DNA of 64,000 nt from a virus. Location of the stretch: the IMG/VR virus record IMGVR_UViG_3300047160_019164, positions 28,464 to 92,463 of that record. One strand, given 5' to 3'. Shown here piece after piece: positions 54,738 to 56,683 of this stretch (position 1 is its first letter; each line of letters starts with the position of its first letter). Made by a program: the position numbers and the translations under genes. The notes under the pieces are model-generated. The model did not search any database and was not told the origin of the DNA. It worked only from the letters and a program-made list of their open reading frames with translations.

Positions 54738-56683
54738 TGAGCGCTGAAGCTGCCGCCGATGCTGCACGTTCAGCTCTTGCCATCAATCGCAAGCACGCGC
54801 TCGACGTGGTGCACGCGGGTGGTGGTAAAGAGCTGAAGCGCATTCTCGCCGAAGCCGAGAAGGATCTTGAGCTGCGCCTCAAGCAAGCCGAGGGACTTGG
54901 CAAGGCGGAGACGTTCAACGTGGCGCAGATGCGCGCCACGCTCGCGCAAGTGCAGCAAGTCCAACGTGAGCTGAACACCAAGCTCGGTAAGCAACTCGTC
55001 ACCAACGCACGCGATGCCGGCGAACAAGCGGTCGGTAACACGTTCAAGTATCTGACCGACGCGGAGAAGGCTTTCACCGGAGCGACGCAGCCGCTTGCAC
55101 TCGCCGAAGCCAAAGTGCTCACGAAGGCGGTGGGTAAAGCAGAATCGAGCGTGCTCAGTCGCATTGCCAATGGTGCCGAAGGAACGAACGGCAAGGTCGG
55201 CATCCTGCAACGCTACGGCACCGAGGTCGTAGGCAACTTCGAACAGAAGCTCGCCGTCGGGCTCATCACGAAGAAGCCGTGGGACGAGATTCGTCAGAGC
55301 ATCATCGACGAAAGCCCATTTCTCCAAGGTGCGCCCGCGCATTGGGCCGAGCGCATCGTGCGCACGGAATGCTTAGTCGGTGAGACGAGCATCACCGGAG
55401 CGGTGGTGAGGGCAGTGCACCGACGGTGGTACGAGGGCGACGTCATCGAAGTCGTCACCGAAGGTGGCCGCAAGTTCACCACAACCCCGAATCACCCGAT
55501 GCTTACGGCGCGAGCGTGGGTGTCTTCGGGCATGCTGCACGTGGGTGATTACTTGGTCTGCTACGTCGGGCAGAAGAGTGCGGGTGCGCCTGGAGACAAA
55601 CACGTAGCAGACGCACCAACCACGATTCGAGAGGTATTCGAGACGTTGTCGAAGATAGGGGTCGTGGAGAGGCGACGAGGAACTGAGAACGAGTTCCACG
55701 GCGACGGGCGCGATGGCGATGTCGACGTTGCGTGTGCCGACCGGGAATTGGCGTTCGGGCGATTCGCCCCTCTTCACAAGCCAACTGCAAAGGGTGTCTT
55801 CACCCCATCCGACTTTGCGACATCGTCGTTCTGCTTGGCGTGCGGAAGACTGCTCTCGATTGATGAGCAGCCGTGCGAGTGCGGGGGTGCGCGTAGCGAG
55901 CCCTGCATCTCGGATTCGTTTTGCCACAGCCCTATCGTCAACACCAAGCTCGTGCGCGATTTGCTTGACGGAGATGCCAGCGCGGAACCTTTCAATGATG
56001 TTCGCATCGGGAAGGTTCAGCATTCGGGGATGGCCGATTGTGGCGAAGCGGTTCGAAGCGGCGGCAGACTTGCTGCGCGCGATTCCTCTCTCCTTGATAA
56101 GCCTAGCGATGGTCCATTGGCCGCAGTCGAGTCTTTCGGCGACTCGGAAGGTGCTCATCCCGGAGAGATAGAGCTGGACCGCGTGGTCTTCGTCGAGCGT
56201 CGTTCGTTCGCTGGGTATGTTTACAACCTCACGACGCCGCACGGGTACTTTGCCATCAATGAAGCATATACCGGGAACACGATGGCTGCCTTCAACAAGG
56301 CAGGGCTCGAGACCATCATCGAAGCGAACGAAGACTTGGGTGACATGGTGAAGATCATCGTCGCCACGTTCGACGAGCGTACCGCCGCCGACAGCTACGC
56401 CACGCACGGGCAGATTCGAAGGCCGCAAGAGCTATTCGAGACGTGGTACGGCTCGATGATGCATCCACCCGATCGACCCAACGATCGCGGAAGCACGGTA
56501 CCGCACCGCATCTCGTGGCCGTTGCCTAAGTCGCTCGCGTGGAAGAGCACCGGCGACATCGCCAAGCGCTGGAAGGCCGAGAAGCGCAAGGGTTCGCCGC
56601 CCGATCGACCCACGATGACGACGGTGCCGCTCAAGCAATTCGGGAAGACGCCACCGCCGAAGGTGAAGTCCGAAGAGCCCTGA
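54737..56683 (+). CDS. Head morphogenesis protein (MuF/SPP1 gp7-like) with an intein
   Basis: 'AERIVRTE[intein]TMAAFN', 'DERT..HGQ..HPPDRPNDR'. Confidence 0.85.
   Translation: MSAEAAADAARSALAINRKHALDVVHAGGGKELKRILAEAEKDLELRLKQAEGLGKAETFNVAQMRATLAQVQQVQRELNTKLGKQLVTNARDAGEQAVGNTFKYLTDAEKAFTGATQPLALAEAKVLTKAVGKAESSVLSRIANGAEGTNGKVGILQRYGTEVVGNFEQKLAVGLITKKPWDEIRQSIIDESPFLQGAPAHWAERIVRTECLVGETSITGAVVRAVHRRWYEGDVIEVVTEGGRKFTTTPNHPMLTARAWVSSGMLHVGDYLVCYVGQKSAGAPGDKHVADAPTTIREVFETLSKIGVVERRRGTENEFHGDGRDGDVDVACADRELAFGRFAPLHKPTAKGVFTPSDFATSSFCLACGRLLSIDEQPCECGGARSEPCISDSFCHSPIVNTKLVRDLLDGDASAEPFNDVRIGKVQHSGMADCGEAVRSGGRLAARDSSLLDKPSDGPLAAVESFGDSEGAHPGEIELDRVVFVERRSFAGYVYNLTTPHGYFAINEAYTGNTMAAFNKAGLETIIEANEDLGDMVKIIVATFDERTAADSYATHGQIRRPQELFETWYGSMMHPPDRPNDRGSTVPHRISWPLPKSLAWKSTGDIAKRWKAEKRKGSPPDRPTMTTVPLKQFGKTPPPKVKSEEP
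55370..56278 (+). mobile_element. Intein (303 aa) in MuF
   Basis: Starts CLVGET; block B 'FTTTPNHPMLT..WV...L.VGDYL'; block F 'GYVYNLTT'; ends 'YTGN' followed by Thr+1. Confidence 0.88.
55373..56218 (-). CDS. Antisense-encoded putative homing endonuclease (tandem HTH plus Vsr/DUF559-like nuclease) inside the MuF intein; start ATA56218 or ATG56158
   Basis: 'AVQLYLSGMSTFRVAERLDC..TIARLIKERGI' and 'IERFRAGISVKQIAHELGV..VAKRIRDAGL' (HTH); 'GE..L..ERQFPVG..NVDIA..VAVEL..H..RLEYL..RGW.V' (nuclease). Confidence 0.7.
   Translation of the reverse strand: MPSERTTLDEDHAVQLYLSGMSTFRVAERLDCGQWTIARLIKERGIARSKSAAASNRFATIGHPRMLNLPDANIIERFRAGISVKQIAHELGVDDRAVAKRIRDAGLATRTPALARLLINREQSSARQAERRCRKVGWGEDTLCSWLVKRGESPERQFPVGTRNVDIAIAPVAVELVLSSSSPLHDPYLRQRLEYLSNRGWCVCYVFVSRRTRTLLPDVADQVITHVQHARRHPRSRRKHRVIRGCGELAATFGDDFDDVALVPPSVHCPHHRSGDARLTD

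What the first reader, a model, noticed from the sequence alone, without database searches (positions are those of the whole stretch)
55370..56278. Intein whose putative homing endonuclease is encoded on the antisense strand in exact codon register
SEEN: the MuF intein has normal splicing blocks (C1, TxxH, VYNL, terminal Asn, Thr+1), but its central part shows no recognisable endonuclease on the sense strand. The minus strand over the same interval encodes two HTH repeats followed by a Vsr/DUF559-like nuclease pattern (ERQFPVG..NVDIA..VAVEL..H..RLEYL..RGW). Its stop, TAA at 55373-55375, is the reverse complement of intein codon 2, a TTA Leu codon that is rare in this GC-rich genome. Its likely start lies in block F, whose antisense reads GAGG-TTGTAAAC-ATA (56218). 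A GHVYNL block-F variant would give ATG at this position; here GYVYNL gives ATA, and the next ATG is at 56158. INFERENCE: this is a dual-coded mobile element, with self-splicing on one strand and a free-standing homing nuclease on the other. I do not know this as a described intein architecture.
Basis: partly seen in the sequence, partly recalled or inferred. Interest (0 to 1): 0.9.

Follow-up and report, generated by a model that had tools for sequence, protein, structure and literature searches.

The report
Intein with antisense-encoded homing nuclease gene
A self-splicing insert (intein) in a soil phage's head-assembly gene carries a gene for a DNA-cutting "homing" enzyme on the opposite strand, on the same codon triplets; the layout is real and under selection, but a 2025 preprint already describes it, so this is one more member.

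Summary

- **Sense strand.** Window 55370-56278 (+) is a 303-residue class-1 intein at the RTE|T site of a MuF-like head-morphogenesis gene (54737-56683).
- **Antisense strand.** The minus strand (56218 to 55373) encodes 281 residues in exact codon register: two helix-turn-helix domains and a Vsr-like nuclease. The fold model has pLDDT 83.9. It matches Vsr 1cw0 at Z 10.1 and the homing endonuclease I-Bth0305I at Z 9.0.
- **Chance control.** Frame openness alone means nothing in this GC-rich phage. A 538-codon in-register antisense ORF lies over the portal gene and has no family match.
- **Homology and selection.** The antisense protein has relatives in at least 210 viral contigs and 123 cultured phage records, at 42-70% GC. 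Every annotated record examined (12 of 12) places it antisense to a phage gene, a head or capsid gene in all but one. In 14 independent pairs the intein centre shows 420 antisense-synonymous-only changes against 149 sense-synonymous-only; the ratio reverses in the splicing blocks.
- **Start codon.** The block-F His codon is CAT (antisense ATG) 43 times against CAC 9 times; elsewhere CAC is preferred (p = 4e-13).
- **This copy.** It has ATA in place of ATG. Its closest relative has two stops in the nuclease gene.
- **Prior description.** bioRxiv 10.1101/2025.01.02.630785 describes anti-sense VSR-like endonucleases in phage minor-capsid inteins. This scan has also found the layout on other DNA.

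The parts
54737..56683 (+). MuF-like head-morphogenesis gene (precursor with intein). It lies just downstream of the 614-residue ORF 52696-54540, taken as the portal gene from its position only; that ORF matched no PHROG family.
   Evidence: ORF and translation. The N-extein matches phrog_241 'head morphogenesis' at E 1.4e-4. Pfam Phage_Mu_F reaches only E 0.2. Intein-less homologues of 344-351 residues are 46-52% identical.
55370..56278 (+). Intein of 303 codons, inserted at ...RIVRTE|TMAAF...
   Evidence: Cys1, TPNHP, GYVYNL, Asn303 and Thr+1. TIGR01445 above cut-off. The AF2 model matches HINT domains up to Z 12.0.
55370..55549 (+). N-terminal splicing region (codons 1-60, with block B TPNHP at 55484-55498). 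The sense frame is the constrained frame here.
   Evidence: pLDDT is 90-96. Summing the four 15-codon bins for codons 1-60 gives 160 sense-synonymous-only against 39 antisense-synonymous-only changes.
55565..56164 (+). Sense-frame insert (codons 66-265). It is read through as a linker with no recognisable domain.
   Evidence: No Pfam domain. pLDDT is about 30 for residues 172-264. Only HINT matches appear in the fold search. The antisense frame is the conserved one.
56165..56278 (+). C-terminal splicing region (blocks F and G). Block F GYVYNL lies at 56213-56230.
   Evidence: pLDDT is 91-98. The sense frame is constrained over the last 30 codons: 87 against 17.
55373..56218 (-). Antisense ORF (281 codons plus TAA) for an HTH-HTH-Vsr-like homing endonuclease, in exact codon register with the intein.
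   Evidence: It lies entirely within the intein.
56227..56230 (-). Shine-Dalgarno-like GAGG, the complement of the block-F Asn-Leu codons, 8 nt upstream of the start position.
   Evidence: An AGG is kept at this distance in nearly all relatives.
56216..56218 (-). Start position. It is ATA here (complement of Tyr TAT); most relatives have ATG or GTG (complement of His CAT or CAC).
   Evidence: One search counts 58 ATG, 11 GTG and 4 ATA among 76 loci. One search gives CAT 43 against CAC 9 at block F, compared with 181 against 398 in the exteins (p = 4e-13).
56156..56158 (-). Next in-frame ATG (residue 21). It falls inside the first HTH domain, so starting here would truncate that domain.
   Evidence: first helix at residues 7-18.
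56090..56200 (-). First helix-turn-helix domain (residues 7-43).
   Evidence: AF2 places helices at residues 7-18, 23-30 and 34-43. phrog_664 matches at E 7.7e-7. The GcrA DNA-binding domain matches at Z 7.0.
55907..56008 (-). Second helix-turn-helix domain (residues 71-104).
   Evidence: Pfam HTH_23 and HTH_7 score above their gathering scores. Tn3 resolvase matches at Z 6.2.
55523..55819 (-). Vsr-like (PD-(D/E)xK-type) nuclease core (residues 134-232). The invariant residues are E140 (55799-55801), D166 (55721-55723) and E175 (55694-55696).
   Evidence: pLDDT is mostly above 90. Matches: 1cw0 Z 10.1, 3r3p Z 9.0, 3hrl Z 8.8. A family profile matches 3hrl at E 0.0013.
55376..55522 (-). C-terminal tail of the antisense protein (residues 233-281). 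It overlaps the intein's N-terminal splicing domain; its HRVIRG motif is the complement of block B TPNHPM.
   Evidence: The sense frame dominates the substitution pattern here.

Best explanation
This is a composite mobile element. A class-1 intein sits in the MuF-like head-morphogenesis gene of a 92-kb soil phage, and its homing endonuclease is a separate gene on the opposite strand, read on the same codon triplets.

**Sense strand.** The precursor is translated through the whole element. About 65 N-terminal and 38 C-terminal residues form the HINT splicing domain. The roughly 200 codons between them are a largely unstructured linker. Splicing then restores the roughly 345-residue head protein (inferred).

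**Antisense strand.** The same DNA encodes a 281-residue protein with two HTH DNA-binding domains and a Vsr-like nuclease core.
- Its ribosome-binding site and start codon lie inside intein block F. In relatives the His codon CAT gives ATG, and the Asn-Leu codons give AGG 8 nt upstream.
- Its stop lies at intein codon 2, so the gene travels entirely within the intein.

**Proposed action (inferred).** By analogy with I-Bth0305I and other homing endonucleases, the nuclease cuts intein-less alleles at the conserved ...WAERIVRTE|TMAAYN... site during co-infection. Recombinational repair then copies in the intein together with the nuclease gene.

**State of this copy.** The ORF and the invariant residues are intact and the GAGG is kept. 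The start position reads ATA, so the nuclease is either made at a low level or has recently been silenced.

**Shown and inferred.** Shown: the sequence anatomy, homology, predicted folds and selection signatures. Inferred: antisense transcription, translation, cleavage and homing.
For: 1. **HTH domains.** The antisense ORF matches HTH families above Pfam gathering scores and the HTH modules of phage endonucleases.
2. **Nuclease fold.** The AF2 model has pLDDT 83.9. Its core matches Vsr 1cw0 (Z 10.1, rmsd 2.8, 108 residues), I-Bth0305I 3r3p (Z 9.0) and the DUF559-like 3hrl (Z 8.8). A family profile matches 3hrl by sequence at E 0.0013.
3. **Distribution.** Relatives occur in 210 IMG/VR contigs, 123 cultured phage records and 1516 protein clusters at E <= 1e-30. 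All 12 annotated records examined place them antisense to a phage gene, a head or capsid gene in all but one.
4. **Both frames open.** Both stay open across hosts of 42-70% GC. In the three 48-53% GC phages first examined, 2.4-3.5% of extein codons would be antisense stops, yet none occurs across the 240-308-codon antisense ORF.
5. **Substitution pattern.** In 14 independent pairs the intein centre has 420 antisense-synonymous-only against 149 sense-synonymous-only changes. The ratio reverses in codons 1-15 (9 against 59) and the last 40 codons (49 against 105). Finer bins place the switch at about codon 60 and about 30 codons from the end. The flanking exteins of the Gordonia phages show 0 against 35.
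6. **This lineage.** Changes specific to the window's lineage in the centre are 25 synonymous and 29 non-synonymous in the antisense frame, against 13 and 41 in the sense frame.
7. **Start codon.** The block-F His codon is CAT 43 times and CAC 9 times, against 181 and 398 in the exteins (Fisher p = 4e-13).
8. **Sense model.** The HINT parts are confident, residues 172-264 have pLDDT about 30, and every fold match is an intein or HINT domain.
9. **Target site.** Intein-less homologues with an uninterrupted, nucleotide-conserved junction exist.
10. **Independent report.** bioRxiv 10.1101/2025.01.02.630785 describes the same layout.
Against: - There is no experimental evidence of any kind for antisense transcription, translation or cleavage.
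- No sigma-70-like promoter or terminator was found on either strand of 55000-56900. The 60 nt between the intein end and the start show no conservation beyond what the amino acids dictate.
- This copy has ATA rather than ATG. The next ATG would truncate the first HTH domain.
- The closest relative, L010, has two in-frame stops in its nuclease gene, so this clade may be decaying.
- The window protein itself matches no nuclease family in Pfam. The family lacks an invariant His and second Asp, so the EDxHD catalytic motif is not reproduced.
- Sense residues 80-130 are predicted with moderate confidence. Part of the 'linker' may therefore be structured.
Confidence: 0.85

Rival explanations
1. In this particular phage the antisense nuclease gene is already dead, having lost its start codon. 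The intein persists only because precise loss is rare, which is the late phase of the homing cycle. The architecture is real, but this copy no longer homes.
For: - The start position reads ATA, and no in-frame ATG follows before residue 21, which lies inside the first HTH domain.
- The closest relative, L010, has two in-frame stops in its nuclease gene while its intein stays open.
- WIN, L010, L020 (ATA) and L036 (GTG) group together in the quick tree, so weak or broken starts cluster in this clade.
- No promoter-like site was found.
Against: - The 281-codon frame is intact, every family-invariant residue is present, and the GAGG is kept at the right distance.
- Changes specific to this lineage still show antisense purifying selection: 25 synonymous and 29 non-synonymous, against 13 and 41 in the sense frame. 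A long-dead gene would not show that.
- NCBI genetic code table 11 lists ATA among its start codons (my own knowledge).
- L020 and L021 share ATA and have open frames.
- In this genome an in-register antisense frame stays open by chance about half the time over this length. Openness therefore argues only weakly either way.
Confidence: 0.4
2. The antisense frame is a chance 'shadow' ORF of a GC-rich gene and encodes nothing.
For: In this phage only 0.25% of codons would be antisense stops. A 538-codon in-register antisense ORF lies over the portal gene.
Against: - The control antisense ORFs match no family; this one matches HTH families above gathering score.
- It folds at pLDDT 83.9 into HTH-HTH-Vsr.
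- It stays open in phages of 42-53% GC.
- It shows antisense-frame purifying selection in all 14 pairs.
- The start codon itself is under selection.
Confidence: 0.02
3. The sense-frame insert is the real, in-frame endonuclease domain. The antisense similarity between phages is only a by-product of sense conservation in exact register.
For: - Conserved sense motifs exist: P83 and FHGD at 109-112.
- Sense residues 80-130 are predicted with pLDDT 58-87.
- In exact register, conservation in one frame necessarily produces some conservation in the other.
Against: - In the centre, substitutions concentrate at sense codon position 1. Amino-acid identity is higher in the antisense frame (0.54) than in the sense frame (0.43).
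- The sense insert matches no Pfam family, and the fold search returns HINT domains only.
- Sense residues 172-264 have pLDDT about 30.
- FHGD is simply the complement of the nuclease's VAVE strand.
Confidence: 0.02
4. The antisense protein is real but is not a homing endonuclease. Examples would be a transcription regulator, an anti-defence factor or a defence nuclease that uses the intein as a safe harbour.
For: - No cleavage data exist.
- The catalytic signature (E, D, E) differs from the EDxHD motif of the characterised family.
- HTH domains are generic.
Against: - The gene is always wholly contained in an intein, with its start in block F and its stop in the first 16 codons.
- The same unit is found at four or more different insertion sites, including a dCMP deaminase. 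This fits mobility driven by the nuclease.
- The best fold matches include a proven homing endonuclease.
- Intein-less alleles with a conserved junction exist.
Confidence: 0.08

Closest known systems
Full inteins with an anti-sense VSR-like homing endonuclease in actinobacteriophage minor capsid (MuF-type) proteins (bioRxiv 10.1101/2025.01.02.630785, version of 20 Oct 2025)
   Same: - Both are contiguous inteins in a phage minor-capsid or head-morphogenesis protein.
- In both, the endonuclease ORF lies on the antisense strand of the insert.
- Both predicted structures match Vsr 1CW0 (their Z 10.6 over residues 144-267; here Z 10.1 over 134-254) and 3R3P.
- In both, the sense insert has no recognisable structure.
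- The Gordonia phages found here as relatives (Vivi2, Angelicage, Fosterous, Affeca) are actinobacteriophages.
   Different: - This copy comes from a soil metagenomic phage of unknown host and sits at the RTE|T site.
- The preprint surveys only PhagesDB. Relatives here also lie in phages of Salmonella, Pseudomonas, Klebsiella, Cronobacter, Vibrio and Aggregatibacter.
[quoted passage not shown] Here the ORF starts in block F and ends at intein codon 2, so it overlaps both splicing regions.
- A search of its main text found no mention of start codons, of ribosome binding, or of synonymous substitutions.
EDxHD / Vsr-like homing endonucleases, prototype I-Bth0305I (PMC3239194), and the free-standing Vsr-like genes of 'fractured genes' between split-intein halves (PMC2677866)
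   Same: - Both have a Vsr-like catalytic fold (3r3p Z 9.0).
- Both have N-terminal tandem DNA-binding modules.
- Both are associated with phage self-splicing elements, and each is a separate gene rather than an in-frame intein domain.
   Different: - I-Bth0305I is intron-encoded. The fractured-gene endonucleases split the intein in two; no wording about an opposite-strand or antisense arrangement was found in the main text of that paper.
- Here the gene is antisense and the intein stays contiguous.
- The composite motif E-D-x-H-D is not reproduced: the invariant residues are E140, D166 and E175, with no invariant His or second Asp.
Inteins with an antisense LAGLIDADG endonuclease gene (Synechocystis DnaX intein; Gorbalenya 1998, as cited in the 2025 preprint) and the cyanobacterial dnaX intein study (bioRxiv 10.64898/2026.09.14.751524)
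   Same: The principle is the same: the endonuclease sits in an overlapping reading frame of the intein DNA while the host frame stays open.
   Different: The nuclease family differs (LAGLIDADG), as do the hosts (cyanobacterial chromosome) and the host gene. I read only the outline of the dnaX preprint.
ShiLan 'hidden' HNH endonuclease in a phage DNA methylase (PMC11855218)
   Same: A homing endonuclease is encoded in an alternative frame of an insertion that the host gene reads through without stops.
   Different: That gene is on the same strand and out of frame, belongs to the HNH family, and has no intein splicing domain.
Canonical bifunctional inteins (for example PI-SceI, PI-PfuI)
   Same: Both have a HINT splicing domain interrupted at the same topological position by the mobility module. 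The sense model matches 1dq3 at Z 9.3 and 2cw8 at Z 11.3 through the HINT part.
   Different: In the canonical inteins the endonuclease is an in-frame domain of the same polypeptide. Here it is a separate protein from the opposite strand.

Membership tests
Intein (class 1, HINT domain) | N-terminal nucleophile (Cys1) and block B TxxH | tested here: met
   Cys1 and T39-P-N-H42 are present. TIGR01445 scores 27.7 bits against a cut-off of 24.5.
Intein (class 1, HINT domain) | Blocks F and G with terminal Asn and a +1 Cys/Ser/Thr | tested here: met
   GYVYNL...YTGN and Thr+1 are present. The penultimate residue is Gly rather than the usual His, as in the whole RTE|T clade.
Intein (class 1, HINT domain) | HINT fold | tested here: met
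   The AF2 model matches the Mtu RecA intein (Z 12.0), hedgehog Hint (Z 11.5) and the Npu DnaB intein (Z 11.3). All 32 matches are HINT domains.
Intein (class 1, HINT domain) | Protein splicing activity | not testable with these tools
   This is inferred from intact blocks, from sense-frame purifying selection on those blocks, and from the likely essential role of the head gene.
Anti-sense VSR-like endonuclease inteins (bioRxiv 10.1101/2025.01.02.630785) | Contiguous intein with the endonuclease ORF on the antisense strand of the insert | tested here: met
   Both frames are open in exact register.
Anti-sense VSR-like endonuclease inteins (bioRxiv 10.1101/2025.01.02.630785) | The antisense product has a Vsr-like catalytic core | tested here: met
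   1cw0 matches at Z 10.1 and 3r3p at Z 9.0. The preprint reports Z 10.6 to 1CW0 and an HHpred match to 3R3P.
Anti-sense VSR-like endonuclease inteins (bioRxiv 10.1101/2025.01.02.630785) | Sequence homology to the actinobacteriophage members | tested here: met
   tblastn of the antisense protein matches 26-28% identity over 86-96% of its length, antisense to the MuF genes of Gordonia phages Vivi2, Angelicage, Fosterous and Affeca. I did not check that these exact phages are the preprint's VSR-like cases.
EDxHD homing endonucleases (I-Bth0305I) | Vsr-like fold | tested here: met
   3r3p_B matches at Z 9.0, rmsd 3.2, with 91 of 98 residues aligned. Foldseek gives probability 0.99.
EDxHD homing endonucleases (I-Bth0305I) | Composite catalytic motif E, D, x, H, D | tested here: not met
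   The family-invariant residues are E140, D166 and E175. No invariant His or second Asp appears in 27 or 40 aligned members. The DUF559-like pattern E-D-E fits better.
EDxHD homing endonucleases (I-Bth0305I) | Site-specific double-strand cleavage at the insertion site | not testable with these tools
A candidate target is the conserved junction in the intein-less alleles.
DUF559 / MTES_1575 restriction-endonuclease-like families (Pfam) | Match to the family profile | tested here: inconclusive
   The window protein has no match at E <= 1. Six of 27 relatives match MTES_1575 (best E 1.4e-6) and 1 of 27 matches DUF559. The family profile matches the DUF559-like 3hrl at E 0.0013.
Phage Mu F / SPP1 gp7-like head-morphogenesis protein (host gene) | Match to the family profile | tested here: inconclusive
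   Pfam Phage_Mu_F reaches E 0.2 with 12.8 bits, below its gathering score of 29.6. The N-extein matches phrog_241 'head morphogenesis' at E 1.4e-4. The gene lies just downstream of ORF 52696-54540, read as the portal gene from position only, and carries the ARTE motif shared with annotated MuF-like genes.

The most novel reading that the evidence does not exclude
Intein block F doubles as the translation-initiation region of the antisense nuclease. The conserved residues H-V-Y-N-L read backwards as AGG, an 8-nt spacer and ATG. On this reading, the ATA found here and in the related L020 and L021 copies is not a lesion. It would be a selected, attenuated start that throttles a potentially toxic nuclease. 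The intein and nuclease would then be one co-evolved, obligately dual-coded unit. It is spread unannotated through more than 100 cultured phages of Proteobacteria as well as Actinobacteria, well beyond the actinobacteriophage cases in print.
Probability: 0.25. Interest if true: 0.55.

Novelty: new member of a known kind. Interest (0 to 1): 0.4.

Why it matters
It is a clean natural case of about 850 bases that encode two proteins on opposite strands in the same codon register, with measurable selection on each frame in different segments.

Gene callers miss the nuclease. None of the 12 annotated phage records examined lists the antisense gene, and intein similarity has led at least one dCMP deaminase to be labelled 'head morphogenesis protein'.

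For intein biology it supports the idea that free-standing endonuclease genes invade mini-inteins. That idea belongs to the 'splicing first' view discussed in the 2025 preprint.

- The family extends well beyond actinobacteriophages.
- The ORF overlaps both splicing regions.
- Block F supplies the ribosome-binding site and the start codon, with codon-choice evidence at p = 4e-13.
- A quantitative map shows which frame is under selection along the element.

The architecture itself is not new.

Tried and rejected
- **The look-up of encoding contigs.** Context came from the search for related loci and the phage collection instead.
- **Sequencing runs.** No RNA holder was listed. Only soil DNA runs hold the stretch.
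- **Laid contigs.** Contigs of four runs gave low, patchy cover and no joints, so nothing could be said about intein-less variants in the same samples.
- **Promoter and terminator scan.** The scan of 55000-56900 found none on either strand. The host is unknown, so this says little.
- **Upstream conservation.** An alignment of the 60 nt upstream of the start in 25 clade members showed no conserved element beyond the AGG and what the amino acids dictate. The Tyr codon of YTGN is TAC 14 times and TAT 8 times, so there is no sign of a selected TATA.
- **C-extein search.** The search for related loci with the C-extein alone found no relatives. A junction-specific DNA pattern did.
- **Free-standing relatives.** None was identified. 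Nearly all of the top 150 cluster representatives carry the block-B 'shadow' motif (YRVIRG or YRVIWG). The two candidates without it (P0118, P0160) again match antisense to head genes. The origin by invasion of a free-standing gene therefore remains an inference.
- **Sequence search of solved structures.** The single protein gave nothing, and Foldseek E-values were weak for the three-domain model. VIA-align and the family profile gave the clear matches.
- **Tree.** The careful search did not finish, so the quick tree was used only to place the ATA copies. The WIN, L010, L020 and L036 group is an unresolved polytomy with support 82.
- **GC3.** The intein centre has lost the sense GC3 signal (0.64 against 0.82 in neighbouring genes) but has not gained a strong antisense one (0.65). 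GC3 alone does not decide the frame.
- **Complex prediction.** It was not used, because no binding claim is made.

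
Full report
**What is in the window.** The window is the last 64 kb of a 92,463-base IMG/VR virus record from soil that CheckV rates complete.

A gene at 54737-56683 (+) follows the ORF 52696-54540, which I take as the portal gene from its position only. 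The N-extein of the 54737-56683 gene weakly matches a PHROG 'head morphogenesis' family (E 1.4e-4). Its homologues are annotated as MuF-like minor capsid proteins.

Codons 212-514 of this gene (window 55370-56278) are a 303-residue intein inserted at ...RIVRTE|TMAAF.... It has Cys1, TPNHP, GYVYNL, a terminal Asn and Thr+1. It scores above the cut-off of TIGR01445. Its AF2 model matches only HINT domains, up to Z 12.0.

**Checking the observation.**
- Intein codon 2 is TTA (55373-55375), which is the antisense TAA. TTA occurs 0 times in 1631 neighbouring codons.
- The minus strand reads GAGG-TTGTAAAC-ATA, ending at 56216. The next ATG is at 56158.
- The 281-residue antisense frame matches Pfam HTH_23 and HTH_7 above their gathering scores.
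- It also matches the HTH modules of phage endonuclease PHROGs.

One caveat matters. In this 62% GC phage only 0.25% of codons would be antisense stops. An open in-register antisense frame of this length is therefore expected about half the time. A 538-codon example lies over the portal gene. That control ORF and a second one match no Pfam family. Openness is not the evidence; the next three lines are.

**Line 1: the antisense protein is a real family.**
- tblastn against 50,697 phage records found full-length matches of 25-28% identity to the antisense protein. Each of the nine examined lies antisense to an annotated gene, a head or capsid gene in all but one. The hosts are Gordonia, Mycobacterium, Klebsiella and Cronobacter, plus one metagenomic virus.
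- A more central family member matches 123 records, including Salmonella, Pseudomonas and Aggregatibacter phages. The three examined are again antisense.
- In IMG/VR, 210 contigs encode a relative. In the 1.8-billion-protein library, 1516 cluster representatives match at E <= 1e-30.
- Both frames are open in essentially all loci, at 42-70% GC.
- In the three 48-53% GC phages first examined, 2.4-3.5% of extein codons would be antisense stops. None occurs across the 240-308-codon antisense ORF.
- The antisense stop always falls within the first 16 intein codons. The gene is therefore wholly contained in the intein.

**Line 2: fold.**
- With a 27-sequence alignment, AF2 gives pLDDT 83.9. The model has two three-helix HTH domains and an alpha-beta-beta-beta-alpha-beta core with pLDDT mostly above 90.
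- A search that does not rely on Foldseek ranks three matches well above the rest: Vsr endonuclease 1cw0 (Z 10.1), the catalytic domain of the homing endonuclease I-Bth0305I 3r3p (Z 9.0), and the DUF559-like 3hrl (Z 8.8).
- A family profile matches 3hrl by sequence at E 0.0013. Six of 27 relatives match Pfam MTES_1575.
- The invariant residues are E140, D166 and E175. This is not the EDxHD motif of I-Bth0305I. I therefore file the protein as Vsr-like or DUF559-like, not as an EDxHD member.
- The sense-frame insert has no Pfam match. Residues 172-264 have pLDDT about 30, and no non-HINT fold match appears.
- Sense residues 80-130 have moderate confidence. This may be an echo of covariation that belongs to the antisense protein, or it may be a small real extension. 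I cannot tell which.

**Line 3: selection.** The frames are in exact register, so one codon alignment serves both.

| Region | Sense-synonymous only | Antisense-synonymous only |
|---|---|---|
| Flanking N-extein, Gordonia pair | 35 | 0 |
| Intein codons 1-15, 14 pairs | 59 | 9 |
| Intein centre, 14 pairs | 149 | 420 |
| Last 40 codons, 14 pairs | 105 | 49 |

- In the centre every one of the 14 phylogenetically independent pairs goes the same way. Amino-acid identity there is 0.54 in the antisense frame and 0.43 in the sense frame.
- Bins of 15 codons place the switches at about codon 60 and about 30 codons from the end.
- The nuclease's last 50 or so residues are therefore dictated by the splicing domain. 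Its HRVIRG motif is the complement of block B, TPNHPM.
- Changes specific to the window's own lineage still show antisense constraint in the centre: 25 synonymous and 29 non-synonymous, against 13 and 41 in the sense frame.

**The start.**
- In 76 loci the codon opposite the second residue of block F (G-H-V-Y-N-L) gives ATG 58 times, GTG 11 times and ATA 4 times.
- Among unique inteins the His codon is CAT 43 times and CAC 9 times. The same host genes prefer CAC, 398 against 181 (p = 4e-13).
- The Asn-Leu codons supply an AGG 8-9 nt upstream.
- Block F therefore doubles as the translation-initiation region of the antisense gene. A search of the 2025 preprint's main text found no mention of start codons or ribosome binding.

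**State of this copy.**
- The window has Tyr (TAT, giving ATA) in place of His. Starting at the next ATG would remove the first helix of the first HTH domain.
- The closest relative, L010 (57% identical in tblastn), has ATG but two in-frame stops in the nuclease gene, while its intein is intact.
- L020 and L021 share ATA. These four group together in a quick, poorly resolved tree.
- No promoter was found.
- I put about 40% on the nuclease being recently silenced here. Most of the rest goes to low-level initiation at ATA.

**Mobility.**
- The same intein-plus-nuclease unit sits at several sites. These are the RTE|T site and the N|CRC site of MuF proteins, a third MuF site in Mycobacterium phage Sejanus, and the PCxxC motif of a dCMP deaminase in virus Rctr197k.
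- Six viral contigs carry intein-less homologues of the window's gene (46-52% identity, 344-351 residues where complete). Their junction WAERIVRTE|TMAAYN is uninterrupted and conserved at the nucleotide level. This is the obvious candidate target.
- Homing itself is inferred, not shown.

**What is known.** My first literature searches found nothing. Earlier notes of this scan pointed to a preprint, which I then read.

bioRxiv 10.1101/2025.01.02.630785 reports 'anti-sense VSR-like' endonucleases in full inteins of actinobacteriophage minor capsid proteins. It gives the same 1CW0 match (Z 10.6) and an HHpred match to 3R3P. It cites Gorbalenya 1998 for antisense LAGLIDADG genes in inteins.

Related cases are the cyanobacterial dnaX intein, the ShiLan hidden HNH, and the split-intein 'fractured genes' with free-standing Vsr-like genes.

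The scan has also reported this layout on other genomes: e1-176563, e1-3422237 and e1-3440232.

**Verdict.** The claim of an undescribed architecture is not upheld.

This is a new member of a known, recently described kind. It adds detail on breadth of distribution, on the block-F start and on the frame-by-frame selection map. Interest is 0.4.

Noticed in passing
L005:616-1968 (KX853510.1, Virus Rctr197k, gene Rctr197k_003): The gene is annotated 'putative head morphogenesis protein', but its exteins read like a dCMP deaminase (HSEENA... and PCVAC motifs). The intein sits at the second Cys of PCxxC. The annotation probably came from similarity between inteins.
   Followed up: partly
L010:1176-2021 (IMGVR_UViG_3300027914_001098): This is the closest relative of the window's element. 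Its antisense nuclease gene has two in-frame stops (after residues 47 and 74), while the 303-codon intein frame is intact. It is an example of the nuclease decaying before the intein.
   Followed up: yes
window 52585-54201 (-): A 538-codon ORF lies antisense to the portal gene, in exact register, and has no Pfam match. It is a useful in-window control showing that long shadow ORFs are normal in this phage.
   Followed up: yes
window 54735-54739: The MuF-like gene's ATG (54737) overlaps by one base the stop of a 66-codon upstream ORF (54537-54737). This arrangement suggests translational coupling.
   Followed up: no
P0035, P0052, P0084, P0112 and others: Proteins of 500-1557 residues match the nuclease's HTH module in 6-15 tandem stretches and lack the nuclease motif. 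They form a family of long tandem-HTH repeat proteins of unknown role.
   Followed up: no
window 55694-55729: Other contigs in all four soil metagenomes laid match just this 36-nt stretch with 4 differences. It encodes NVDIA..VAVE on the antisense strand and FHGD..VDV on the sense strand. Related elements in other phages of the same soils are the likely source.
   Followed up: no
L020 and L021 (IMG/VR), intein junction: In these relatives the intein sits between R and T of the ARTE motif (...STLIAR|TEMTG...). That is two codons upstream of the window's RTE|T site, an apparent shift of the insertion point within one motif.
   Followed up: no
window 56267-56278 and clade-1 relatives: The whole RTE|T clade ends in ...YTGN, with Gly rather than the usual penultimate His of block G.
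   Followed up: partly
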